From sequence record PX418213.1: a DNA stretch of 64,000 bases. One strand, 5' to 3'. The notes beneath the pieces were generated by a model. It saw nothing but the letters and a program-made list of their open reading frames with translations. It was not told the origin of the DNA and searched no databases. This document shows, one piece after another, positions 1 to 11,206 of the stretch. Within the stretch, counting starts at the first letter, position 1; every line of letters starts with the position of its first letter. Both the position numbers and the translations under genes were made by a program. Source of the DNA: a phage.

Positions 1-122
1 GTCCAGTGGGTTGGGAGAGAATACTTAGTCTGCTAACCGCCACCCCCGTTACTATTACCATGCTAAATGTTTCACCCTGCAACCATTTTAATTGCAAGGT
101 GAAACAATTTCAACTTTAATTA

Positions 123-899
123 TTACGCGACTTTTAGTTTCTCAATATATTGTTGCGGGCTGCAACTATATTCTGCGCGTTCTTCTTCTGTCATACTTTC
201 CCAACATAGTTTTAAGCGATCGGCTAGGAACTGATAATCATTATCATCCTCGAGCGATTCATCAATAAAGGTTCCGCCTATCAATGCCACGCCGATTGAT
301 AGAATATCATTAACGGCTTGCGCGTCCAACGTTTTAAATCCGTATGATGCCGCCGCTGATAATACACCTTTATGATCATCAATCATTGTAAAATCAGCGT
401 TCGGGTATAGCTGTTTAAATAATCCAAAGTAGTAACTTTTATATACTGCGTCCTTGCTGTGGTATATTTCGCTAACCTTATCAGCTTCAAAATATTTGTG
501 CAGTGTATCGCGGGAAAATACACGGATATTACTATCCCCACGCCCGCGCAAGCCTTGCTTGCGTAGGAAGTAATAATCTGATTTGCTCATCAGGCGAGCG
601 GTACAAATAAGGTTTAAGGTATTTGCGTCATTCATGCATTGGCGCATATATTCAACTAATGGTAATAAGGTGTCTTGCATTATTAAATGATGCTTGCAAG
701 CCTCGTTTTTGTATTTATTTAAATCTAAATTCCCGTCGCTATCAAAGCAAGGCGCTACGCGATGGAATGAGTTAACGATAGTGCCATCAAGATCCCAAAT
801 CATGACGCGGGAAACATGAGGAAAGCTACGGGTAATATTCGTTTTAACTTGATTCATTTTGTTACGTTCTCCATTAAAGGGATGTAGTTTATCCAGCAT
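123..899 (-). CDS. dmp: HAD-family 5'-deoxyribonucleotidase-like phosphatase (T5 dmp-like)
   Basis: 258-aa ORF; HAD motif I (IWDLDGTIVNS) near N-terminus; sits beside A1-like gene as in T5 pre-early region. Confidence 0.6.
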   Translation of the reverse strand: MLDKLHPFNGERNKMNQVKTNITRSFPHVSRVMIWDLDGTIVNSFHRVAPCFDSDGNLDLNKYKNEACKHHLIMQDTLLPLVEYMRQCMNDANTLNLICTARLMSKSDYYFLRKQGLRGRGDSNIRVFSRDTLHKYFEADKVSEIYHSKDAVYKSYYFGLFKQLYPNADFTMIDDHKGVLSAAASYGFKTLDAQAVNDILSIGVALIGGTFIDESLEDDNDYQFLADRLKLCWESMTEEERAEYSCSPQQYIEKLKVA

Positions 900-937
900 T
901 GCCCGCTATCTATCAGCGGGCAATAATAAATCAACTA

Positions 938-1330
938 TTAAAGACCAAAGGCCAGCGCATCAGCGATAAAACTAATATCTTCTCCTGATACGTGGGAACG
1001 AATGCCCGCGCATGTAAATACCTTCGCGCTCATTAGTTGATCATCAAGACAAGCCGGACAAGGCGCGACAACTGCAAACGCTAGGCCGGATTTCACGGCG
1101 TCGATGATAATCGTTTCCTGCTTCACCGTATCAACATAAACGCCTGCGGCCTTGATGTGACTACTTGCGCGGCCTTGCGTATAGGCGAAAGTCGTGATCT
1201 GCAGCGCCTCGTTAAACTCGAGTAAATCATCAACAACGTGACCGGCCTCAACGTGATACCGCTCCCCATTAGAATAAACCAGAACGATTGAGGATTGAGC
1301 GCGATCGAATGGAATATTTTGCTTTTTCAT
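938..1330 (-). CDS. hypothetical pre-early protein
   Basis: 130-aa ORF co-directional between dmp-like and A1-like genes; no recognised motif. Confidence 0.5.
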   Translation of the reverse strand: MKKQNIPFDRAQSSIVLVYSNGERYHVEAGHVVDDLLEFNEALQITTFAYTQGRASSHIKAAGVYVDTVKQETIIIDAVKSGLAFAVVAPCPACLDDQLMSAKVFTCAGIRSHVSGEDISFIADALAFGL

Positions 1331-1397
1331 AGTTATAAAACTCCAATTAATTTAATAAGGGAAATAAGCGAGGTATATACCCCGCTTATAAATTTAA

Positions 1398-3083
1398 TTA
1401 TGCGAAAAACTTACCGTTTTTAAAGTCAATCAAAGTGCGCTGGCCGTTCGCATAGGTAATTAAATGCGTTTGCGTCCAGCTTGACGCGCCAACGTTATAG
1501 CCCATATCTAGGGAACCAGCAACGCCCGCCGTATATACGCCGCCGTAAATGCTGGCGGTGTGAGTGTGCCCCGTGTTTAACTTGCCCAATTTCTTAAACT
1601 GCTTAGGATTGCCACGGCTGCCGTTTATGCCGTTGTGACCGTGTACGCCGCATTCAATGCCTGCAATCTTGAAAGATTGATCAGTCGTTAGGAAAATCGC
1701 GTTAAACTCGCAACCTGCGACGGTACGCAGCGCATAATCTAGCACGTTGAAAGTATCATCCTGCCTTGCAATAGCTGCATAGATAGCGGCATTCAGGCGG
1801 TGATATAATTCCGCGTTTGCTGGATCGTCTTTAATGTTAGCATTGCGATCATCAAGCCAACGGGATAGCGCCAGATCGTGGTTTGATTCCACAATGATTG
1901 TTTGACTAAAATCACGTTCCATTGATTCCAGCACGCGCCCGGTATCGATGAGATCATCCAGAACCTTATCACGTCCGGCTGCATACTGTTTCGCTAGAAA
2001 TACACCAGAAGCGCGGTTATGGTGGTTGCGCGATGTAAAATCATGCACGTCATGCACAAATTGATATTTTGGCTTGAGAATATCCACTAGCCCATAAGTA
2101 TCACCGTGCCCCCATGACGCTGCGGCGCACTCCTCATCAAGTTTTTCGGCGTGTATGTCGCCATATTGCAAGCCTAAAACATGCCCCGACGTTTCAAAGC
2201 ATCCGGTGGGAGTAGCGCAAACGTTCAGATCGTAAAACATGCCGCTTTCGTCCATCGTTTCAAGCTGGCGCACAAAAAACTCACCGTCTTCGTCGAACTC
2301 AACAATCAGCGCACCGAAATTATGCAATGCTTCCGCTTTCTGTCCTGCTTTCTGCTGAATGTAGTTTTTAAGCGTTGCCGTTCCGGTGGAATACATGCGG
2401 CGCACTACTTCACCTTTGAGAGCTGGCACGCTTTCGGCGGTGATTTTAGCGTGACCAATTGCCAGACCTTCCAGATTAAGCGCGGTTGCAGTTTCTGCGA
2501 ATCCAGACAGCGGATAGTCTGCGGTGGGCAAAACATTAATTTCAGCCATGAAAGCGAAACGGCGGTTATTTAAAAACACGTTTTTACTGCAAATATATTT
2601 ATCAAACGCGGAATCATATTTGATTCCGTCTGCGCCTTCCCCATTCTGGAATCCGTTTTTATTATAAATATACTTGCTAACCAGCAAATCAGCGCCGATA
2701 AATTGGGCGTATTGCTCCAACGCGGCTAAAAAGTTTTTATGCGGGAAAGTATTATTTTGAATCGACGTTAGAATAAAGCGTTTACCTTGTTTTACTTCCC
2801 ACTGTTCCACCGTGCTAGAAATAATTCCAGCCGCTTCGGGGCGCTCGTCGTTTTTAATGGCTTTTGCTACTTTCGCCGCTTTTGGTTTCGCTGGTTTATT
2901 TGCTTCCAGCCAATCACAAATCGCGGTGGAGTGTTTTGCAGTATCGTAAACCGCTTTCGAAATATCGTCACAAACTTCCAGCTTGGTGGCGCGCAGACGT
3001 TTACCATAGAAATTAAAGTCAGCGGCCAGCTTCAGGATAACGGTTTGCTTTTCTGCGGAAATAATCATAGTAATAAGCTCCAT
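1398..3083 (-). CDS. A1: A1-like pre-early protein, calcineurin-like metallophosphoesterase
   Basis: 561-aa ORF; phosphoesterase motifs GDIHAE, SNHD, GHTHT; size and position match T5 A1. Confidence 0.6.
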   Translation of the reverse strand: MELITMIISAEKQTVILKLAADFNFYGKRLRATKLEVCDDISKAVYDTAKHSTAICDWLEANKPAKPKAAKVAKAIKNDERPEAAGIISSTVEQWEVKQGKRFILTSIQNNTFPHKNFLAALEQYAQFIGADLLVSKYIYNKNGFQNGEGADGIKYDSAFDKYICSKNVFLNNRRFAFMAEINVLPTADYPLSGFAETATALNLEGLAIGHAKITAESVPALKGEVVRRMYSTGTATLKNYIQQKAGQKAEALHNFGALIVEFDEDGEFFVRQLETMDESGMFYDLNVCATPTGCFETSGHVLGLQYGDIHAEKLDEECAAASWGHGDTYGLVDILKPKYQFVHDVHDFTSRNHHNRASGVFLAKQYAAGRDKVLDDLIDTGRVLESMERDFSQTIIVESNHDLALSRWLDDRNANIKDDPANAELYHRLNAAIYAAIARQDDTFNVLDYALRTVAGCEFNAIFLTTDQSFKIAGIECGVHGHNGINGSRGNPKQFKKLGKLNTGHTHTASIYGGVYTAGVAGSLDMGYNVGASSWTQTHLITYANGQRTLIDFKNGKFFA

Positions 3084-3164
3084 TAAAGGGATAAAAAACG
3101 TTTGTTATTGGCAAATGTTGCCAAATATAACGCCTCCAATAATAGGCGTTATAATTTGCAATAT

Positions 3165-3410
3165 TTAACTAATAGGCATCAGGCTAGAACTAACACCGCA
3201 AACAACGGCGGCAATAAAACAAATCAGGCCCAAACGCTTCGCTAACTTAGATTTGCGTTTAAAATAATACGAATCTAAATCATTTTGAAAATATGCGAAC
3301 AATAACGAGGCCGCCACAATAAATAGGCCTAAAATTAAGGATTCAGTAGGAAAGAAAATCATTTTAATAACTCCAATTAAAGGGAAATTATAGTGGGGAA
3401 TAATCCCCAC
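3165..3410 (-). CDS. small membrane protein
   Basis: 81-aa ORF with two hydrophobic segments. Confidence 0.5.
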   Translation of the reverse strand: MGIIPHYNFPLIGVIKMIFFPTESLILGLFIVAASLLFAYFQNDLDSYYFKRKSKLAKRLGLICFIAAVVCGVSSSLMPIS

Positions 3411-3419
3411 TAATTAAAT

Positions 3420-3827
3420 TTATTCACCTGCGGCTTGTTTTACCTCATCGGCAACGCCTAACAACTGCGCCACGGCGTCCAGCGTTTCCAGCTTCGCGCT
3501 TTCAAGGCTTGCCAGATCATCGGCGTCCTTGATAATGCCGGAATCGATAGCGTGTTTTGCAATTACTCGCACATAGTGAGCTTTACGGATTGAGCTGCCG
3601 CCGCCAACCTTGCGCGGCTTGTCGCTTTTTTGGTAGGCTTTCGCGCTGGTCAATTTCGAACGAACTGACACGGGAGAAGCCGCACCAACTGCTTTCGCGA
3701 TCTCTTTCAAGCCGTCGCTATTTGCGAATTCTAGCCCGTTTTCATTGATTAACTGCTGATACATGGAAACAGCCTGCTGGGTGTTTTCTTCGTTCCAGGA
3801 AAATTTTGCGGCTTTAACGTTAGTCAT
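3420..3827 (-). CDS. hypothetical protein
   Basis: 135-aa ORF, co-directional, tightly packed. Confidence 0.55.
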   Translation of the reverse strand: MTNVKAAKFSWNEENTQQAVSMYQQLINENGLEFANSDGLKEIAKAVGAASPVSVRSKLTSAKAYQKSDKPRKVGGGSSIRKAHYVRVIAKHAIDSGIIKDADDLASLESAKLETLDAVAQLLGVADEVKQAAGE

Positions 3828-4179: not shown

Positions 4180-4408
4180 GGTATAAACTCCAAGTTATTT
4201 GTGGATTGTTCCGCATTATCTGCTACTTTCTAGCAGACAATAAGAAAAAATCCGCTAGCCATTATAAAATCAATTTAAGGAACTCCACGCGGGCCGCTAT
4301 ATCCCAGTTAGGGGGCGGGATGCATTATGGTAAGCACCGACCGTCAGATTTTATCAAGTTATCGCTCTTATCGAACTGGGTACATCTTAAAGCCTATCGG
4401 CTAGGGTG

Positions 4409-4585
4409 TCAAATAGTTTTTTCGTTTTCTTTTAAGTTAGGATCTTCCCAACTGAATAGCATTTCGCAAAATATTTTCCCATCTTTATGATGGTAAGCTA
4501 TTTCACTTCCGTGGTTAGCACAAAAATTAATCACCGCTTCAGCTTGTTCTACCGTGATATTGTTAGCCGTTTCTTTGATTTTCAT
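4409..4585 (-). CDS. small hypothetical protein (58 aa)
   Basis: hand-translated MKIKETANNITVEQ...; AAGGA RBS 9 nt upstream; below ORF-track length cutoff. Confidence 0.3.
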   Translation of the reverse strand: MKIKETANNITVEQAEAVINFCANHGSEIAYHHKDGKIFCEMLFSWEDPNLKENEKTI

Positions 4586-5010
4586 ATCGTCGATTCCTTA
4601 TAATGTAATAAGTTTACCGCCGATAGGCTTTAAGATATACCCAATTTTTAAAGAGCGCGGCGGTAAACTTCCCGCCGTGTAGTTCGTCATTGCCGCCCTA
4701 CGAGATAAATAATAACAAACAACGAAAAAGGCGCAACCTTATATTTGTAAAGAAATGTAAAGACAAACGCCACCGGACACCGTGCGGCGACCTGGGCGCA
4801 GCGCATTAAAATTAAAAGAAACGGGCGCGCGAATAACACAAAACATAGCAGATAGGCAAGTAATTTTTTCACTTATATTTGCTTTGGGGGTATTGACAAA
4901 ATCTAAAAAGCTCGTGGCAGCGATAAACGACGTGGCCCCTTATGATTGGATGGCCAAAAACTTTATTGCGTTCTGGGGCGTTTTAGGCGCATTCTAGCCT
5001 TGTTGATAAC

Positions 5011-5076
5011 TTATCCACAGAAGCAAAAATGAAATTTTCCTAGTTATCCACTTGACTTTTATTTTCCAGTGGATAA
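5011..5076. promoter_or_regulatory. DnaA-box-like cluster with perfect inverted pair
   Basis: TTATCCACA at 5011-5019; AGTTATCCACT (5042-5052) and AGTGGATAACT (5068-5078) form an 11-bp inverted repeat. Confidence 0.5.
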
Positions 5077-5275
5077 CTACTTATTTTATGAAATAAATTA
5101 ATTGACTTTTATTTGCTAGTATGCATCGGAAAGATAGCAGACTAATAATTGCTAGGATGATGATCATGCTGGTGGATTGTAACGGCCTGAATTATTAGCA
5201 GACTGTTAATCAGGGAAAATCTCATTAGCCAACTAACTATTTCATGATATATAATATACTTATAAATTAATGAGA

Positions 5276-5360
5276 AATAATAACTATAAGAAATCATCAT
5301 CATTATAATAATAACTATAAGAAATCATCATCATTATAATAATAACTATAAGAAACTATC
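5276..5360. repeat. 31-bp tandem repeat, about 2.7 copies
   Basis: unit aataataactataagaaatcatcatcattat repeated head-to-tail. Confidence 0.7.
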
Positions 5361-5365
5361 GGCAT

Positions 5366-5497
5366 AAGTGAGAACCACTATCATTTAAGTTATCCACAAC
5401 GTTATCCACAGCACAAAATAATTTGACACGATAGGCGGCGATATGAGGGCTTTTACACAGACTTATCCACAGGTTATCCTACTGTATAAATATACAG
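5366..5497. repeat. left arm of ~130-bp imperfect inverted repeat with three TTATCCACA boxes
   Basis: reverse complement closely matches 8755-8886 at both ends (gtgagaac...ttatccaca...ctgtataaatatacag). Confidence 0.65.
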
Positions 5498-5786
5498 GGT
5501 AAAAAGGCAGTGTTAACGACTGCAATCAATTTTAGGCGGCCTAAAACGCTTTCTAACGAGCTAAACGCTGCGGGGTAATATTAAAGTAAAGACCCAACAC
5601 GTCGCCCTGATGGCTTCAGTGCGTCGCCCTGGTGGCTTCGCCGTGTTTTGCTCGTTACTACACCGCTGCGCGGTTAGCATAAAATTAGGCGTTAGGCAAG
5701 AAAAATAAAAAAGTAAAATAATCTTTGCCTATGCTAGAAAATTACCTTTATCATTCACTCACCGATTAACGAGAGGGGCCGAACAA

Positions 5787-6773
5787 ATGAGGCTATATAA
5801 ACCAGATAACGCAACCGTCTTAAAAGGTGCGCTGCGTAACCTGCTGGACGGTAGCAGAACAACCAGCATTAAGCATTTTGTTTTCAATATTGAAACTATT
5901 CATCAAAACTTTTTTGATGATTATGATGCTTATAATATGAATAGTTTTCTACCGTTATATAAGCAAGGGGCAACGCTTGTTTTATATAATCAGGATTATC
6001 AATTACTTACTAGTCGGGGGCCGGATACTGATTTCATAATAGTAAAAGGCAACACAGTAAAAGCCTATGATACTGGGGCGGGCCTAGAAGTTTTTTCAAT
6101 AGAAAACTATGAGGCCAATGATAATGATCTTTATGACGTAGAAAATTTTCTCGATTCATTTTGGCGTTATTTATCAGTTGGCTGGAATCGGTCGGATTCT
6201 GATGGGTATCGTTTTGCGGCTATAATGGCCTTTGATGATAACGGTAATTTTTTGCTACCGTCGGAGTTATATAATCGGGTATATGAAGGCGATATTGTTG
6301 ACGCCGGATTTTCTTTCGAAAGGGAAGAAAGTATTGGCAATATAGAAAAACATGTTGTAAATTCTAACACTAAAAACGTTCACACTCAAACTACTGAAAA
6401 CAAAGGAAAAAATACCATGACCAAGATTGCTAACATCGTTGCCGCTAATAAATCCGCCGTTGTAAACGCTGCAAAACTGGAAGCGGGTAAAATTGCACTA
6501 ACTCAAATCACGAAAGTAGCGGCTAAAAAAGCACCGTTCATGATCAGAGGCTATATTGATACGCCGATTGGTCGCGTAGTGATCGCTAACCTGCTGAGTG
6601 TAGCGGTTGACCAGTACGCCCCGAGTAACCAGAAAGCGAAAGCGGTAGCAAGCGCGGCAATGGAAGCGGCTATGTTAGAAATGGTGCAATCTTTTAACAT
6701 CGCTGAGATGATCGATGAAATGGTAAAAGGTATCGATATTTCTACTTTTACCAATAACACCGAAAACGAGTAA
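5787..6773 (+). CDS. hypothetical protein (328 aa)
   Basis: long plus-strand ORF with GAGAGGGG RBS; first gene of inverted-repeat-bounded block. Confidence 0.6.
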   Translation: MRLYKPDNATVLKGALRNLLDGSRTTSIKHFVFNIETIHQNFFDDYDAYNMNSFLPLYKQGATLVLYNQDYQLLTSRGPDTDFIIVKGNTVKAYDTGAGLEVFSIENYEANDNDLYDVENFLDSFWRYLSVGWNRSDSDGYRFAAIMAFDDNGNFLLPSELYNRVYEGDIVDAGFSFEREESIGNIEKHVVNSNTKNVHTQTTENKGKNTMTKIANIVAANKSAVVNAAKLEAGKIALTQITKVAAKKAPFMIRGYIDTPIGRVVIANLLSVAVDQYAPSNQKAKAVASAAMEAAMLEMVQSFNIAEMIDEMVKGIDISTFTNNTENE

Positions 6774-6890
6774 TAAATAATCTAATGTAAAGTTTTGTAA
6801 AGGTCGCCTTTTATGGTGGCCTTTTTTGTTATAATGCCTTTACACCGTTCGAGGACGGTTGAAATTTTCCCAAAATTTTGGAGGCTTAAA

Positions 6891-7121
6891 ATGGTTGCTT
6901 TTTCTTCTGCTAGTCATCTTTTCACTGGAAAAGGCTGGGTATCAAATCGCTGGATCATTCAAGAAATGGTGCAAGAGTACGGCATCGCTAAAACTTATAC
7001 TACCATACAGGCGCTTTATGATAATGATCAGATTGATCAGCAAACGGCGGGCTTTTTACTGGATACCCTGAAGGCGGAGCACTGTACCAAAAAACAAGCG
7101 GCCAAAATTATTTTAATGTAA
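6891..7121 (+). CDS. hypothetical protein
   Basis: ORF 6813..7121 with start moved to ATG 6891 behind GGAGG RBS. Confidence 0.5.
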   Translation: MVAFSSASHLFTGKGWVSNRWIIQEMVQEYGIAKTYTTIQALYDNDQIDQQTAGFLLDTLKAEHCTKKQAAKIILM

Positions 7122-8301: not shown

Positions 8302-8496
8302 ATGAGCAATAAAATTGTTGTAACCAAAACTACTACGATGGTAGACGTTTTTTACGTGCCCAATACGCCGGAGAATCGACAAGCGGTTGAGCGTGGGGAA
8401 TATGATAAAGTGATCTATGATCACGATGGTTATTATCAGTATTTGGTGGATTCATACGGGGAGGAGGAAAAGATCACGCATCAACTACCTGACTAA
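8302..8496 (+). CDS. hypothetical protein
   Basis: 64-aa ORF, last gene of plus-strand block. Confidence 0.5.
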   Translation: MSNKIVVTKTTTMVDVFYVPNTPENRQAVERGEYDKVIYDHDGYYQYLVDSYGEEEKITHQLPD

Positions 8497-8754
8497 TAAT
8501 CACGGGGCGCAACTATCCGGGAGTGCCCCCAATTTTCAAACGATAATCATTCTCATTTGACCGCGCTCGCGATGGTTAGCCTGCTAATGGTTCGGGTGTT
8601 ACGTGTCGCCTTGTGTGATCGTTAGCGTGCTAACTAATTTTCAAGCCTCCTCCAATTTTGCCCTTGTTTTAGTATCTCCACCAAAATAAAACGCGTTAGA
8701 ATGCGTTTGAGAGCGTTTTAGCGGTATATTAGAATTATTCACTACATAGGAATA

Positions 8755-8886
8755 CTGTATATTTATACAGTAGGATAAGCTGTGGATAAGTCTGTTAATA
8801 ACGCCTCAAAATGGCTAGGATTCTGTCAAGTCAAATCGTGCTGTTAATAAGTCTGTGGATAACTTAAATAACAGTGTTTCTCACTT
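8755..8886. repeat. right arm of ~130-bp imperfect inverted repeat with TGTGGATAA boxes
   Basis: ctgtatatttatacagtaggataagctgtggataag ... tgtggataacttaaataacagtgtttctcac mirrors 5366-5497. Confidence 0.65.
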
Positions 8887-8889
8887 CCG

Positions 8890-9125
8890 TTCTTAAATGA
8901 GAATCATTATCATTTGCATTTCACTATCTAACTAATAATCATTCCACTTTTTAAATGAGAATCGTTCCACTTCCTGAATAATTTTCGTTCCACTTTCTAA
9001 ATGATAATCGTTATCATTTGCATTCCTCTTTCTAAATGCGAATCATTCCACTTCTTAAATGAGAATCGTTTCACTTTTTAAATGAGAATTATTATCATTC
9101 TCATTCCGCTTTTTAAATGAGAATG
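8890..9125. repeat. array of about 7 TAAATGAGAAT-type motifs
   Basis: taaatgagaat and variants (taaatgataat, taaatgcgaat) at irregular 23-60 bp spacing in AT-rich DNA. Confidence 0.6.
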
Positions 9126-9148
9126 ATTCTTATTATCATTCGTATTTA

Positions 9149-9170
9149 GCGCAGGGCAATTGCCCTGCGC
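9149..9170. promoter_or_regulatory. perfect 22-bp palindrome GCGCAGGGCAATTGCCCTGCGC
   Basis: exact palindrome between the two repeat arrays. Confidence 0.6.
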
Positions 9171-9174
9171 TTTT

Positions 9175-9397
9175 GTGCAAATCCGACATTGCTCCACGGG
9201 TGTTACGTGCGGGCGTGTATGTGCGAATCCGACAATTTTTGGTAGTGTGCAAATCCGACTCGAAAAATTTTTATAGTGTGCAAATCCGACAATGAATTTT
9301 TCTAGAAACTCCAGCAATCTCGAACTGCGCATCAATCCTGTGGAGTATGTGCAAATCCGACATGGTTTTTCTAGGATTAAGATGTGCGAATCCGACA
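9175..9397. repeat. six direct copies of GTGC(A/G)AATCCGAC, each followed by a T-run
   Basis: copies at 9175, 9221, 9247, 9278, 9349, 9384. Confidence 0.7.
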
Positions 9398-9725
9398 AGA
9401 TTTTTGTGACTTCGATGAGAGGGTGTGTGATTGTGTGAGTTTGAGGAGAAGTTGAGAGAGCGAGTGAAACTTGGGGGAACTGCGAGAGGGGCGCATGTTT
9501 GGTGCAGGGCACCTGATTTGCGGGGATTTTGGGGAAGAGTTGAGAAGATTTGGGTTAATTTGAGATTAGGGGAGATAAAGTAAAATTTTATTAGCAAAAT
9601 GGGGCAAAATAGCTTGACAAGTGAAAATTTCTGTGGCTCTAAAAACTCAGGCAATCATGGGCCTTCGGCCCGAAATAATGCTGCTATTTTCAGGAGATTA
9701 TATGTTCCTAAAAACTTAGGCAATT

Positions 9726-9774
9726 GTGCAAATCCGACCATAAATTTCTAGAAACACAATGTGCGAATCCGACA
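9726..9774. repeat. two further GTGC(A/G)AATCCGAC copies
   Basis: gtgcaaatccgacc at 9726 and gtgcgaatccgaca at 9761. Confidence 0.65.
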
Positions 9775-10284
9775 GTAATTTCTGGAAATGTGTTTTCAAA
9801 AAATGTCCCCTAGAAATAACCGCCCTCCTCATAACCGCCCTGTATTAAACCGCCTAGTATATGTTCCTAGAAACTTAGGAGAACCGCCCACTAGAAGTGT
9901 AGTATCTCGTGAGTATTTCGTGAGAACTCTGGAGTTTCTAGGAAAGTGTTGTGCCACCCTAGCAGATGAGCGGCAACAGGTGTATCATCTTGAATGTAAA
10001 TTATGTGGTCAAAAGTTTTACTTTTATTTTAAATATAAGATCCCCCAGGGTTCTCATATAGAGCTTTGCCCCCGCCAGAAGGTCTCGTGGTGTTTCTAGC
10101 AATTTATATTAAATTACTTATTAACTTGTCCTGTCGCTCCGTATCCTCCGCTACAAGTTAGTAATTTTAAATTACTGAACCACCACACCTTCTGTGTGGC
10201 AACTCTAAATGGTTAATTCTATTAACTCATAGAGTTATGATAACATACATTTAGCTATCTGTCAACGAGAGTTTGTATTTGAGT

Positions 10285-10309
10285 CTCGGTACAGATATTG
10301 TGCACCGAG
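10285..10309. other. stem-loop at boundary of repeat region and early genes
   Basis: CTCGGT (10285-10290) pairs with ACCGAG (10304-10309), 13-nt loop. Confidence 0.4.
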
Positions 10310-10321
10310 ACATGCAGGATC

Positions 10322-11206
10322 TTACAGTAACTCTTGGTATGCTTTTTGATACGCCTCAGTGTCAGTAGGTGTATCTTTTGCTAGTGCAATTAGTTCATCT
10401 GTTATCTGAATATTCGTATTATAACGTGAGTGGAACTCGTTAGGAATTTCTAGGTATCTATTGATGAATGCTGCAGCAAGCGGTGTGACTAAACCAATCT
10501 CTAGAGATAGCTTAACTTGTTTTTCGTAGATTAAATATTGAGAATCAGATGGGGTTGGTGGGGTTACATCAGTTTTCTCCGGTTCTTTTTCTGGAAGCAA
10601 GGGATTATTATATAATGCTTCATCTGGAAGCACAGATTTACGCTCTTTAAATATATAAGTTTCTAGATCCGATGCTTTAGATCCTGAGTATACCGCAAAG
10701 ACGCTAGCTTTACCCTGGGATGCCCTAACTGGTAAATAACTAGTAGGATAGCTTCTTAATGCATCATGGAATGGACTTCCTGAGTACTTGTACGTATCCC
10801 CATAGAGATCATCAATATTCATTCGTTCATCTTCAAAAATGTGAAAAGAGCTAAATGATGGGATAGTAAAGTATTCCATCTGTAATCCATAAACTAAGAA
10901 ACGATGTGCATATGCGCTAATCTTTAAGACTGTGAATGCTTTTTCACCTTCTTTATGGGCGTTGCCTTTTGAAGTAACTTGATAACGTTTACAAAACATC
11001 TCTACTAGACGTTTCTCATTAATACTAAGGGTGGAGTATAGTCGTCCACTTAATCCTATAAGTGCATCGAACATAAATGCTAGTTTATCTTTTTCTTCCT
11101 GAGATAGTTCTGGAAACGGTAATACTTTCGCATTAGGAACATTATTGTTCTCTTTAGGTTTTGTTTTACCAGCATTTTGTCTTAGTTTATCTTTAAAGTT
11201 ATACAT
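10322..11206 (-). CDS. hypothetical protein
   Basis: 294-aa ORF. Confidence 0.6.
   Translation of the reverse strand: MYNFKDKLRQNAGKTKPKENNNVPNAKVLPFPELSQEEKDKLAFMFDALIGLSGRLYSTLSINEKRLVEMFCKRYQVTSKGNAHKEGEKAFTVLKISAYAHRFLVYGLQMEYFTIPSFSSFHIFEDERMNIDDLYGDTYKYSGSPFHDALRSYPTSYLPVRASQGKASVFAVYSGSKASDLETYIFKERKSVLPDEALYNNPLLPEKEPEKTDVTPPTPSDSQYLIYEKQVKLSLEIGLVTPLAAAFINRYLEIPNEFHSRYNTNIQITDELIALAKDTPTDTEAYQKAYQELL

What the first reader, a model, noticed from the sequence alone, without database searches (positions are those of the whole stretch)
9400..9660. Strand-asymmetric purine-rich, C-depleted tract
About 250 bp of the plus strand are almost entirely G, A and T (gggtgtgtgattgtgtgagtttgaggagaag...), flanked by the GTGC(A/G)AATCCGAC repeats. 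Extreme strand skew over a non-coding segment suggests single-strand-specific structure or function. The minus-strand ORFs called here are probably composition artefacts.
Basis: seen in the sequence. Interest (0 to 1): 0.45.

Follow-up and report, generated by a model that had tools for sequence, protein, structure and literature searches.

The report
G-rich end of T5-type terminal repeat
The C-poor stretch is real, but it is the conserved last ~240 bp of the long terminal repeat of a T5-like phage, inside the long-known non-coding "injection stop signal" region, and it most likely acts as a protein-binding site next to the point where the genome end is cut.

Summary
Window 9397-9639 has the strongest GC skew in the 64 kb: 9405-9604 has G 78, C 14, skew 0.70, against a maximum of 0.595 in 200 Markov simulations.

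The window is the left 64 kb of a T5-like phage (Demerecviridae). The tract lies in the non-coding "Repeat Region 3 / injection stop signal" of the left terminal repeat. Six GTGCRAATCCGAC copies (T5 "direct repeat D") lie to its left and two to its right.

The tract ends exactly at the right boundary of the terminal repeat (…CTGTGGCTC|TAAAAA, 9639|9640). It is therefore the extreme right end of the mature genome.

- **Conservation:** its length (239-241 bp) and composition are constant in 22 distinct relatives.
- **Polarity:** G-richness on the same strand, with about 10-bp phased G-runs, persists next to the repeat end in Klebsiella and Pantoea phages. The upstream sequence there no longer aligns or differs.
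- **Excluded:** the minus-strand ORFs are composition artefacts. There is no Rfam family, no conserved G-quadruplex and no significant single-strand fold.

Best mechanism (inferred, about 0.35): a duplex-DNA recognition platform for terminase at the terminus, placed like lambda cosB. Rivals are an injection-stop or resume element, a Rho rut site for leftward transcripts, and a recombination-friendly 3' tail.

The region is already known; the polarity and phasing appear undescribed.

The parts
9175..9396 (+). Array of six GTGCRAATCCGAC repeats (T5 'direct repeat D', copies 1-6), each followed by a short T-run. It forms the left flank of the tract.
   Evidence: Exact matches at 9175, 9221, 9247, 9278, 9349 and 9384. 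The T5 annotation in AY587007 lists DRD copies 1-6.
9397..9639 (+). The C-depleted, G-rich tract, which is the last ~243 bp of the direct terminal repeat.
   Evidence: Strongest skew in the window. It is 239-241 bp long with G 80-87 and C 18-27 in 22 distinct relatives. It is 87.6% identical to T5 AY543070 9974-10240.
9501..9513 (.). Small palindrome GGTGC-AGG-GCACC in the middle of the tract. It supplies several of the tract's few C residues.
   Evidence: The arms are invariant and the loop varies (AGG, GGA, TTTA, TTCA) across Tequintavirus and Epseptimavirus. No covariation is possible, so it is uninformative on structure.
9521..9575 (+). Phased G-run / TTGRG array. It corresponds to T5 'direct repeat A' copies 2 and 3. 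G-runs start at 9522, 9531, 9552 and 9569, with TTGAG at 9540 and 9560, giving a period of about 10 bp.
   Evidence: Repeat family D13. T5 DRA annotation at 10026-10064. Fourier power of G at period 10 is 6.2, against a null 99th percentile of 5.9; the values are 6.7 in KpGranit and 10.2 in AAS21.
9576..9639 (+). Most conserved block of the tract, ending at the terminus. It contains TGGGGCAAAATAGCTTGACAAGTGAAAAT and then TTCTGTGGCTC.
   Evidence: 77% of columns are invariant. It is the only part of the tract that BLAST still finds in Klebsiella Sugarlandvirus phages (query positions 171-250).
9639..9640 (.). Right boundary of the direct terminal repeat, which is the physical right end of the mature genome in the right-hand copy.
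   Evidence: The pattern at 9612-9628 lies 11 nt from the contig end in 7 genomes that carry both repeats. T5 AY587007 ends at 10139 and AY543070 at 10219. The PhageTerm ends of Sw2, Sepoy and KpGranit all read ...CTGTGGCTC.
9640..9700 (+). Near-invariant block just outside the repeat, containing the GC hairpin GGGCCTTCGGCCC at 9659-9671.
   Evidence: 62% of columns are invariant over 9640-9720. The Klebsiella phage JIPh_Kp127 has a different hairpin (CACGGTG-ACA-CACCGTG) at the same place. The Sw2 annotators marked it as a minus-strand terminator.
9726..9773 (+). Two further GTGCRAATCCGAC repeats (DRD copies 7-8) outside the terminal repeat. They form the right flank of the module.
   Evidence: Exact matches at 9726 and 9761.
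10237..10265 (-). Promoter-like site TTGACA-17-TATCAT with an upstream TG. It reads leftward towards the tract and matters only for the Rho/rut rival.
   Evidence: 11 of 12 consensus matches. It is invariant in the 4 relatives aligned. Its activity has not been shown.

Best explanation
**What it is (well supported).** The tract is the terminal ~243 bp of the ~9.64-kb direct terminal repeat of a T5-like phage. It lies in the conserved non-coding 'Repeat Region 3 / injection stop signal' region. It sits between the sixth DRD repeat and the site where the genome end is made (9639|9640).

**How it most likely works (inferred).** It is a duplex-DNA protein-binding platform for the packaging enzyme.
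- T5 injects its left end first, so the right end is presumably packaged first.
- The tract is then the first DNA to enter the capsid, directly beside the cut. This is the position that cosB holds next to cosN in phage lambda.
- The G-runs, spaced about one helical turn apart and alternating with T-runs, would present repeated contacts on one face of the helix, or a bend, for the small terminase subunit.
- The near-invariant block spanning the cut, together with the hairpin outside it, would position the nuclease.
- The strand skew would then be a by-product of the oriented, repeated G-rich binding motif rather than a single-strand signal.
For: **Shown.**
- The window is T5-like, and its position 1 corresponds to position 2 of the T5 repeat.
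- The repeat boundary falls at 9639|9640 in many independently determined genomes.
- Conservation peaks over 9571-9700, straddling the cut.
- The tract length is fixed at 239-241 bp across sequences that are 62-100% identical.
- G-rich polarity next to the same ...TGTGGCTC end is kept in other genera. The values are skew 0.74 in Sugarlandvirus KpGranit, 0.72-0.82 in Pantoea phage AAS21, and probably 0.5-0.64 in Proteus phage 2. In the Klebsiella phages the upstream sequence is no longer alignable, and in AAS21 it visibly differs.
- The 10-bp periodicity of G in the -160 to -30 segment is at or above about the 99th percentile of the genome. The power values are 6.2 (window), 5.6 (T5), 6.4 (Sw2), 6.7 (KpGranit) and 10.2 (AAS21).
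- DRD repeats flank the cut on both sides, and only at this boundary.
- There is no coding signal, RNA family, internal promoter or significant fold.

**Inferred.** Packaging polarity and terminase binding.
Against: - There is no experimental or sequence evidence that any terminase subunit binds here.
- The conservation peak covers only the last ~70 bp of the tract plus ~60 bp beyond it. The G-rich bulk is no better conserved than the neighbouring non-coding DNA.
- The phasing statistic is modest, and three of the five phages tested are homologous in this part.
- T7, the best-studied terminal-repeat phage, shows no comparable skew inside its repeat (+0.19 in the right half).
- The left repeat boundary of T5 has no related motif.
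- In the distant Vibrio phage Chazly21 the record seems to end ~40 nt after the last DRD, with no long G-rich tract. Whether that record end is a physical end is unverified.
- In T5 the segment is partly inside the stretch annotated as injection stop signal, so an injection role is equally compatible with its position.
Confidence: 0.35

Rival explanations
1. It is part of the injection stop / resume apparatus. The tract, with the DRD repeats, is bound by the pre-early proteins A1/A2 or by a host factor. Alternatively, it lies in the tail or envelope channel when first-step transfer pauses, and it controls the stop or the restart of DNA entry.
For: - T5 AY543070 annotates 9140-10149 as the injection stop signal, which overlaps the left two thirds of the homologous tract.
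- The Davison preprint puts the shear point at about 9618 of T5, only ~280 bp left of the tract.
- The DRD repeat is conserved as deeply as A1/A2 themselves. It is present in Vibrio phage Chazly21, whose A1 is 31% identical.
Against: - Davison's candidates for the stop signal are the IRD'/IRC' inverted repeats and the DRE repeats further left, not this segment.
- An injection role gives no reason for the tract to end exactly at the repeat boundary, or for the module to straddle it.
- The stop site has never been mapped to base resolution.
Confidence: 0.2
2. It is a Rho-dependent terminator. Read leftward, the tract gives an untranslated, C-rich, G-poor, unstructured RNA, which is the definition of a Rho utilisation (rut) site. 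It would stop transcripts coming from the early region, or from the promoter-like site at 10265, before they run antisense into the pre-early genes.
For: - The minus-strand RNA would have about 36% C and 8% G over 240 nt.
- It is among the 1% least structured windows (rank 10 of 1063).
- All early genes to the right are on the minus strand.
- A conserved promoter-like site lies at 10265-10237 on the minus strand.
- No ORF is conserved downstream of it.
- The polarity is conserved in other genera.
Against: - Fixed length, 10-bp phasing and sequence conservation around the cut are properties of DNA, not requirements of a rut site.
- It is not known whether leftward transcription reaches the tract or whether Rho acts in T5-infected cells.
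- The hairpin at 9671-9659 may already terminate such transcripts.
Confidence: 0.15
3. It is a recombination or annealing aid. After 5' resection or incomplete replication, the 3'-ending strand at the right genome end is this G/T/A-rich, C-poor sequence. It cannot fold on itself and resembles the GT-rich sequences that RecA-type recombinases prefer. This would favour invasion of the other repeat copy to form circles and concatemers.
For: - Predicted single-strand structure is low for the tract's GC content (residual z +2.6 and +3.1).
- The tract is the very end of the molecule.
- The 3'-ending strand at the left end is also mildly G-rich. Window 20-110 has C 25 and G 11 on the + strand.
Against: - A 9.6-kb repeat gives ample homology without a special tail.
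- The left-end skew is within normal variation.
- No Chi sequence or near-Chi is present.
- The idea does not explain the 10-bp phasing or the conserved block beyond the end.
Confidence: 0.1
4. It forms G-quadruplexes or R-loops that act as a structural signal.
For: Nine runs of G3 or longer lie in 240 nt. The G4Hunter score reaches 1.48 in the tract.
Against: - No canonical motif (four G3+ runs, loops up to 12 nt) exists in the window, T5, Sw2 or AAS21. Only KpGranit has one.
- Similar G4Hunter scores occur elsewhere in the window.
- No rightward promoter feeds the tract, and a terminator-like palindrome at 9148-9171 precedes it.
Confidence: 0.05
5. It has no function of its own. The skew would be an inherited by-product of decayed repeats in a spacer.
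For: - Epseptimavirus phages carry an intact DRD copy where this window has the C-poor gttgagagagcgag.
- The share of C among variant alleles is not significantly lower than in the flanks (17% against 21%, p = 0.41).
Against: - Polarity and G-runs are kept in genera where the sequence has diverged beyond alignment.
- The length is constant.
- C variants appear in fewer eligible columns than in the flanks (11.6% against 19.2%, p = 0.012).
Confidence: 0.1

Closest known systems
Phage T5 left-terminal-repeat non-coding region ('Repeat Region 3' / injection stop signal, iss), as annotated in AY587007 and AY543070 and described in Davison, bioRxiv 10.1101/866236
   Same: - It is orthologous: 87.6% identity over the tract.
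- The order of elements is the same. DnaA boxes, DRC/DRE repeats, palindrome J, DRD copies 1-6, DRA copies 2-3, the repeat end, then further DRD copies.
- The boundary sequence is the same.
   Different: - Nothing structural differs. The repeat here is ~9.64 kb, against 10.14 kb in T5.
- The annotations and the one paper on this region whose text could be read (Davison's preprint) describe the repeats but do not mention the strand skew, the G-run phasing or the abutment on the terminus. The preprint has 0 hits for purine, G-rich or skew.
- The function of this sub-segment has never been assigned.
Phage lambda cosB next to cosN (terminase small-subunit binding sites R3-R1 with an IHF bend). This comparison comes from general knowledge, not from a test here.
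   Same: It is a ~150-250 bp non-coding segment directly beside the terminase cut, on the side presumed to be packaged first. It holds several repeated, helically phased elements.
   Different: - There is no sequence similarity.
- T5 makes a 9.6-kb terminal repeat rather than 12-nt cohesive ends.
- Protein binding is untested here.
- Lambda cosB is not strongly strand-skewed, as far as I know.
Phage T7 concatemer junction (160-bp terminal repeat flanked by short-repeat arrays)
   Same: It is a direct terminal repeat whose boundary is flanked by arrays of short, oriented repeats. Strand-asymmetric composition occurs near the boundary: T7 161-320 has skew -0.52.
   Different: - In T7 the skewed array is outside the repeat and C-rich.
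- The right half of the T7 repeat itself has a skew of only +0.19.
- The repeat motifs are unrelated, and T7 uses its own RNA polymerase in processing.
Rho utilisation (rut) sites of Rho-dependent terminators
   Same: On the minus-strand transcript the tract would be C-rich, G-poor, unstructured and untranslated over more than 80 nt.
   Different: Transcription through it and dependence on Rho are unknown. Rut sites do not need a fixed length, sequence conservation or DNA-helical phasing.

Membership tests
T5-type terminal-repeat non-coding region (Repeat Region 3 / iss) | Lies at the right end of the left terminal repeat, downstream of the pre-early genes of a T5-like phage | tested here: met
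   A1, A2 and dmp homologues lie at 123-3827 on the minus strand. The window start matches the start of the T5 repeat. The repeat end is at 9639.
T5-type terminal-repeat non-coding region (Repeat Region 3 / iss) | Series of DRD repeats (GTGCRAATCCGAC), DnaA boxes in inverted repeats, and DRC/DRE repeats in the T5 order | tested here: met
   Eight DRD copies. TGTGGATAA at 8781 and 8854. Repeat families D1 and D2 at 8890-9140. Same order as AY587007.
T5-type terminal-repeat non-coding region (Repeat Region 3 / iss) | Sequence homology of the tract itself to T5 | tested here: met
   87.6% identity over all 265 nt to AY543070 9974-10240. 431 phage records cover at least 80% of the query.
T5-type terminal-repeat non-coding region (Repeat Region 3 / iss) | Acts in cis to halt DNA transfer after ~8% of the genome | not testable with these tools
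   It needs infection experiments. Even in T5 the stop site is not mapped to this sub-segment.
Terminase recognition site (cosB / pac type) | Directly adjacent to the site where the mature genome end is cut | tested here: met
   The tract ends at 9639|9640, which is the physical end in 7 repeat-containing genomes, in T5 (two records), and in 3 PhageTerm-based annotations.
Terminase recognition site (cosB / pac type) | Repeated or helically phased elements, or a bend, suitable for an oligomeric small terminase | tested here: inconclusive
   The 10-bp G periodicity has power 5.6-10.2 in five phages, against a null 95th percentile of 4.5 and 99th of 5.9. The signal is suggestive but modest, and three of the five phages are homologous here.
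Terminase recognition site (cosB / pac type) | Bound by the small terminase subunit and required for packaging initiation | not testable with these tools
   No binding or genetic data were found in the literature searches.
Rho utilisation (rut) site | At least 80 nt of C-rich, G-poor RNA with little secondary structure | tested here: met
   For the minus-strand transcript, C is about 36% and G about 8%. The fold is -10.1 kcal/mol, rank 10 of 1063 least structured windows.
Rho utilisation (rut) site | Transcribed, untranslated, and termination depends on Rho | not testable with these tools
   There is only a promoter-like site at 10265-10237. No transcript data were available.
G-quadruplex-forming sequence | Four runs of at least 3 G separated by short loops (up to 7 nt, relaxed to 12 nt) | tested here: not met
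   No match in the window, T5, Sw2 or AAS21. One match in KpGranit only.
Protein-coding gene (minus-strand ORFs 9078-9512 and 9271-9654) | One conserved reading frame, codon-periodic substitution, and homologues | tested here: not met
   Multiple frames are open at once, and ORF limits vary between phages. Variable sites fall 71/64/60 by phase. There are no PHROG hits.
Known structured RNA family (Rfam 15) | Match reaching a family's gathering score | tested here: not met
   No hit lies inside the tract. Every hit in 8400-10400 is far below its gathering score.
Plasmid or phage iteron replication origin (first impression from the repeats and DnaA boxes) | Similarity to plasmid replicons, with an adjacent initiator gene | tested here: not met
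   No plasmid match in PLSDB. The region is the T5 terminal repeat, and the literature places T5 origins near the middle of the genome.

The most novel reading that the evidence does not exclude
The oriented, helically phased G-run array plus the invariant block across 9639|9640, bracketed by DRD repeats, is the long-missing cis-acting signal that defines the T5 genome end. On this reading it is the packaging initiation and cleavage site of a long-terminal-repeat phage. Because it is also the last DNA of the first-step-transfer segment, the same module may couple end formation to the two-step injection.
Probability: 0.3. Interest if true: 0.6.

Novelty: already known. Interest (0 to 1): 0.33.

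Why it matters
Two questions about T5 have stayed open since the 1960s-80s. One is what stops DNA transfer after 8% of the genome. The other is how the 10-kb terminal repeats and their exact ends are made.

This segment lies where both questions meet. This analysis adds several points to the published repeat catalogues:
- The C-depleted tract is precisely the terminal 240 bp of the repeat.
- Its length is fixed.
- Its polarity and the ~10-bp G-run phasing survive in genera where the sequence does not.
- The DRD/tract/hairpin module exists only at the right boundary.

These points give concrete, cheap experiments: binding assays, phase-shift and scramble mutants, and plasmid packaging assays.

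For genome annotation, the many 'hypothetical proteins' called across this tract in public T5-like genomes should be removed. The conserved ...CTGTGGCTC|TAAAAA motif can be used to set genome ends.

Tried and rejected
- **Plasmid-type iteron origin.** This was my first impression from the iterons and DnaA boxes. There is no plasmid match, and the region is the T5 terminal repeat.
- **Coding capacity of the minus-strand ORFs.** Rejected.
- **Known RNA family.** None found.
- **Promoter or terminator inside the tract.** None found.
- **Significant single-strand fold.** None; z is -0.76.
- **G-quadruplex.** No conserved motif.
- **T7 analogy.** I recalled it from memory and tested it. The T7 repeat is not skewed in the same way, so it is only a loose parallel.
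- **Motif shared by the left and right repeat boundaries of T5.** None of 9 nt or longer, and no DRD at the left boundary.
- **G-rich sequence left of the left boundary.** The skew there is 0.35-0.48, but it lies inside + strand genes, so it is uninformative.
- **Selection against C, judged from the variant spectrum.** The evidence is weak and mixed (p = 0.41 by allele share, p = 0.012 per eligible column).
- **Reaching distant relatives through the neighbouring gene.** The search for related loci and tblastn with the 10322-11206 protein reached only as far as Klebsiella phages. The A1 protein was used instead.
- **Vibrio phage Chazly21.** It keeps DRD, LexA-like and DnaA boxes, but the record starts ~40 nt beyond the last DRD. 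Its true end is unverified, so it neither supports nor refutes a family-wide tract.
- **Literature.** No accessible paper discusses a terminase site or the skew. Davison 2015 could not be fetched. Wang 2005 and Heusterspreute 1987 were not looked up.

Full report

Yes. Window 9400-9660 contains A 75, C 24, G 89 and T 73 (C 9.2%). The core 9405-9604 has G 78 and C 14, a GC skew of +0.70.

At window sizes of 100, 150, 200 and 261 nt this is the most skewed place in the whole 64 kb. The genome mean is -0.03 with sd 0.15 at 200 nt. In 200 first-order Markov simulations of the window, the largest |skew| at 200 nt averaged 0.436 (sd 0.040, maximum 0.595), against 0.696 observed.

The flanking repeat GTGCRAATCCGAC occurs eight times. 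All copies are on the + strand and all lie between 9175 and 9773. Six are left of the tract and two are right, where 0.08 would be expected by chance.

Two details need correcting. Purines are only 63-65%, so 'G-rich and C-depleted' describes the tract better than 'purine-rich'. The natural limits are 9397-9639.

**2. Where are we?**

Megablast of 8700-10100 finds nothing among plasmids. It finds 456 phage records, all T5-like Demerecviridae, with the best at about 91% identity.

The first bases of the window match position 2 onward of the T5 terminal repeat. Homologues of dmp, A1 and A2 occupy the first 3.8 kb on the minus strand. The window is therefore the left 64 kb of a T5-like genome.

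The tract lies in the large non-coding region at the right end of the left terminal repeat. T5 record AY543070 annotates part of this region as 'injection stop signal (iss)'. AY587007 dissects it into palindromes C-J and direct repeats A-D. Davison's preprint calls it Repeat Region 3.

T5 'direct repeat A' copies 2 and 3 lie inside the tract.

The text of that preprint mentions neither skew, nor purine or G richness, nor a terminase site.

**3. The key anatomical fact: the tract is the very end of the terminal repeat.**

In AY587007 the left repeat ends at 10139, reading ...TTTCTGTGGATC|TAAAAACTC. The homologous position in the window is 9639|9640.

An exact-pattern scan of IMG/VR with the 17-mer at 9612-9628 gave independent support. 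In seven different genomes deposited with both repeat copies, the pattern lies exactly 11 nt from the contig end (L023, L030, L032, L036, L040, L047, L051).

Read-based (PhageTerm) annotations of Salmonella phages Sw2 and Sepoy and of Klebsiella phage KpGranit end at the same ...CTGTGGCTC. Three other records place the boundary elsewhere. Chee24 and poul149 place it about 205 nt further left, and Kenya-K37 about 30 nt further left. I regard these as less reliable because they disagree with the read-based and both-end records.

The C-depleted tract is thus the last ~243 bp of the repeat. In the right-hand copy it is the extreme right end of the virion DNA.

**4. Comparative behaviour.**

I compared 22 distinct T5-like sequences (Tequintavirus and Epseptimavirus) that are 62-100% identical over 800 nt.
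- The tract is 239-241 nt long in all of them.
- It has G 80-87, C 18-27 and skew 0.51-0.69.
- Conservation is highest over 9571-9700, straddling the cut. 77% of columns are invariant in 9571-9639, and 62% in 9640-9720.
- The conserved stretch includes the hairpin GGGCCTTCGGCCC at 9659-9671. Part of this peak is forced by the search pattern at 9612-9628.
- The middle of the tract (9440-9500) is the most variable part.
- Epseptimaviruses carry an intact extra DRD copy where this window has gttgagagagcgag.
- A small palindrome GGTGC-N3/4-GCACC (9501-9513) has invariant arms and a variable loop.

BLAST at low stringency still finds only positions 9566-9645 in Klebsiella Sugarlandvirus phages. Even so, the DNA just left of their ...CTGTGGCTC end is again G-rich and C-poor. 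The last 100 nt of KpGranit have G 40 and C 6, skew 0.74. JIPh_Kp127 reaches 0.63.

The same holds in Pantoea phage AAS21, with skew 0.72-0.82 and the end motif CTTGTGGCTC|TAAAAACTC followed by a GGCCTTCGGCC hairpin. It probably holds in Proteus phage 2 as well. There a 0.5-0.64 zone precedes a GCTTGACAAAAATTT...GGTGGCTG motif.

The polarity is always the same: G-rich on the strand that runs 5' to 3' towards the right end.

In the -160 to -30 segment, the G residues show a ~10-bp periodicity. The power is 6.2 (window), 5.6 (T5), 6.4 (Sw2), 6.7 (KpGranit) and 10.2 (AAS21). The null distribution from the window has a 95th percentile of 4.5 and a 99th of 5.9.

In the window the phased elements are GGGG 9522, GGGG 9531, TTGAG 9540, GGG 9552, TTGAG 9560 and GGGG 9569. 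T-runs alternate with them.

Variants to C appear in fewer eligible alignment columns in the tract than in the flanks (11.6% against 19.2%, p = 0.012). The share of C among all variants is not significantly lower (p = 0.41). Direct evidence for selection on composition is therefore weak. The stronger argument is the persistence of the polarity in sequences that cannot be aligned.

**5. What it is not.**

- **Not coding.** On the G-poor minus strand, two or three frames are open at once. ORF limits change from phage to phage. Variable sites are spread 71/64/60 and 38/36/36 over the three phases. Neither ORF has a PHROG match. Public genomes annotate contradictory 'hypothetical proteins' on either strand here.
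- **Not a known RNA.** No Rfam hit lies in the tract, and nothing near it reaches a gathering score.
- **Not a promoter or intrinsic terminator**.
- **Not a structured single strand.** The + strand fold of -12.8 kcal/mol is no better than shuffles (z -0.76). Both strands are among the least structured 1-2% of 240-nt windows, 2.6-3.1 sd weaker than expected for their GC content.
- **Not a conserved G-quadruplex.** No four-run motif with loops up to 12 nt occurs in the window, T5, Sw2 or AAS21.

**6. How it most likely works.**

*Shown.* The tract abuts the cut that makes the genome end. The most conserved DNA straddles that cut. DRD repeats bracket it on both sides. Neither DRD nor any shared 9-mer is present at the left repeat boundary of T5. 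Length and helical phasing are conserved.

*Inferred.* T5 ejects its left end first, which is established knowledge and is repeated. The right end is therefore presumably the first DNA packaged. That places the tract where lambda has cosB relative to cosN: the first-packaged ~200 bp beside the cut, carrying repeated sites for the small terminase subunit.

I therefore favour a duplex-DNA recognition platform for terminase, with the strand skew arising as a by-product of an oriented G-rich binding motif repeated once per helical turn. My confidence in this mechanism is about 0.35.

The identification of the tract as the conserved terminal segment of the T5-type repeat is much firmer, at about 0.9.

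**7. Rivals.**

- **(a) Injection stop or resume element (0.2).** The T5 annotation of iss overlaps it. The estimated shear point lies ~280 bp to its left. The DRD repeat is conserved as deeply as A1/A2, down to a Vibrio phage with 31% A1 identity. This does not explain the exact abutment on the boundary.
- **(b) Rho utilisation site (0.15).** Leftward RNA would be about 36% C and 8% G, unstructured and untranslated. A conserved promoter-like site at 10265-10237 points towards the tract. Fixed length and DNA phasing are not needed for rut. Transcription through the tract has not been shown.
- **(c) Unstructured, GT-rich 3' tail favouring strand invasion or annealing for circle and concatemer formation (0.1).**
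- **(d) G4 or R-loop (0.05).**
- **(e) No function of its own (0.1).**

These roles are not mutually exclusive.

**8. Comparison with known systems.**

The tract is an orthologue of a described T5 region, so as an object it is already known. This phage is simply another T5-like member.

Lambda cosB and SPP1 pacL/pacR are functional analogies recalled from general knowledge; they were not tested here.

The T7 concatemer junction was tested. The right half of its 160-bp repeat has a skew of only +0.19. The strongly skewed array (CCTAAAG repeats, -0.52) lies outside the repeat and has the opposite sign. T7 is a loose parallel, not a model.

**9. Verdict.**

It sits in a long-known region of a classical phage.

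Several properties appear to be undescribed in the literature I could read:
- the terminal position of the tract;
- its constant length;
- its polarity conserved across genera;
- the ~10-bp phasing of its G-runs;
- its restriction to the right boundary.

They make the old questions about T5 end formation and two-step injection more testable. Interest is modest (0.33). Novelty class: already known.

Noticed in passing
window 8753-8772 and 5480-5499: TACTGTATATTTATACAGTA differs from the LexA (SOS) box consensus by one base. A weaker copy (CTGT-N8-ACAG, 3 mismatches) lies in the partner inverted repeat. The first corresponds to T5 'palindrome D'. The same box is present in Klebsiella phage KpGranit and in the distant Vibrio phage Chazly21. 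The Davison preprint does not mention LexA or SOS.
   Followed up: partly
window 8536-9137: Repeats resembling the Fur box are clustered here (for example GAGAATCATTATC against GATAATCATTATC). About 17 of the 32 sites in the 64 kb that have 5 or fewer mismatches out of 19 fall in these 600 bp. They are the T5 DRC/DRE repeats. T5 itself uses the Fur-regulated receptor FhuA, so iron-dependent binding of Fur to the injected DNA would be worth testing.
   Followed up: partly
window 9148-9171: A perfect 12+12 palindrome, AGCGCAGGGCAA/TTGCCCTGCGCT, is followed by TTTTG (T5 palindrome J). In T5 the major 7.9% single-strand nick is annotated right next to it. Sub-threshold Rfam sRNA hits end here, as expected for a terminator-like hairpin on the + strand.
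   Followed up: no
window 9970-10330 (minus strand): A block between the first early gene and the repeat end is almost invariant in the 4 relatives aligned. It includes a strong promoter-like site (TTGACA-17-TATCAT with TG, 10265-10237) that reads leftward. There is no conserved ORF, no PHROG match and no Rfam match. It could be an unannotated non-coding transcript.
   Followed up: partly
window 9817-9852; also L067 (AAS21), L068 (Proteus phage 2), L052 and L063 (Klebsiella phages): The short repeat AACCGCC(CT) occurs three times just outside the terminal repeat. It recurs in the equivalent non-coding region of phages from other genera.
   Followed up: no
window 9296-9310, 9740-9757, 9864-9875, 9933-9944, 10088-10107: The palindromic motif TTCTAGAAAC / TTCCTAGAAAC occurs repeatedly in both orientations on either side of the repeat end (repeat families D8, D15, I6, I13, I20).
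   Followed up: no
L064 1-100 (Vibrio phage Chazly21, reverse strand): The DRD motif GTGCAAATCCGAC, together with DnaA boxes and the LexA-like box, is conserved in a Vibrio T5-like phage whose A1 protein is only 31% identical. The cis elements are therefore as old as the family. The record starts ~40 nt after the last DRD and has no long G-rich tract, but whether that start is a physical end is unknown.
   Followed up: partly
L068 reverse complement of 4200-6900, positions about 1800-2000 (Proteus phage 2): A C-free tandem array (units such as AATAGAATGGTGRGGAAT) with skew up to 0.88 lies to the right of the putative repeat end. A second G-rich, C-poor block also follows the repeat end in Klebsiella phage JIPh_Kp127 (L052 1900-2100).
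   Followed up: no
public records of T5-like phages (for example chee24 9610-10143 minus strand; Sw2 9607-9771 and 9722-9928 plus strand): Many deposited genomes annotate mutually inconsistent 'hypothetical proteins' across this non-coding tract. Three records place the terminal-repeat boundary about 30-205 nt away from the position supported by read-based and both-end records.
   Followed up: partly
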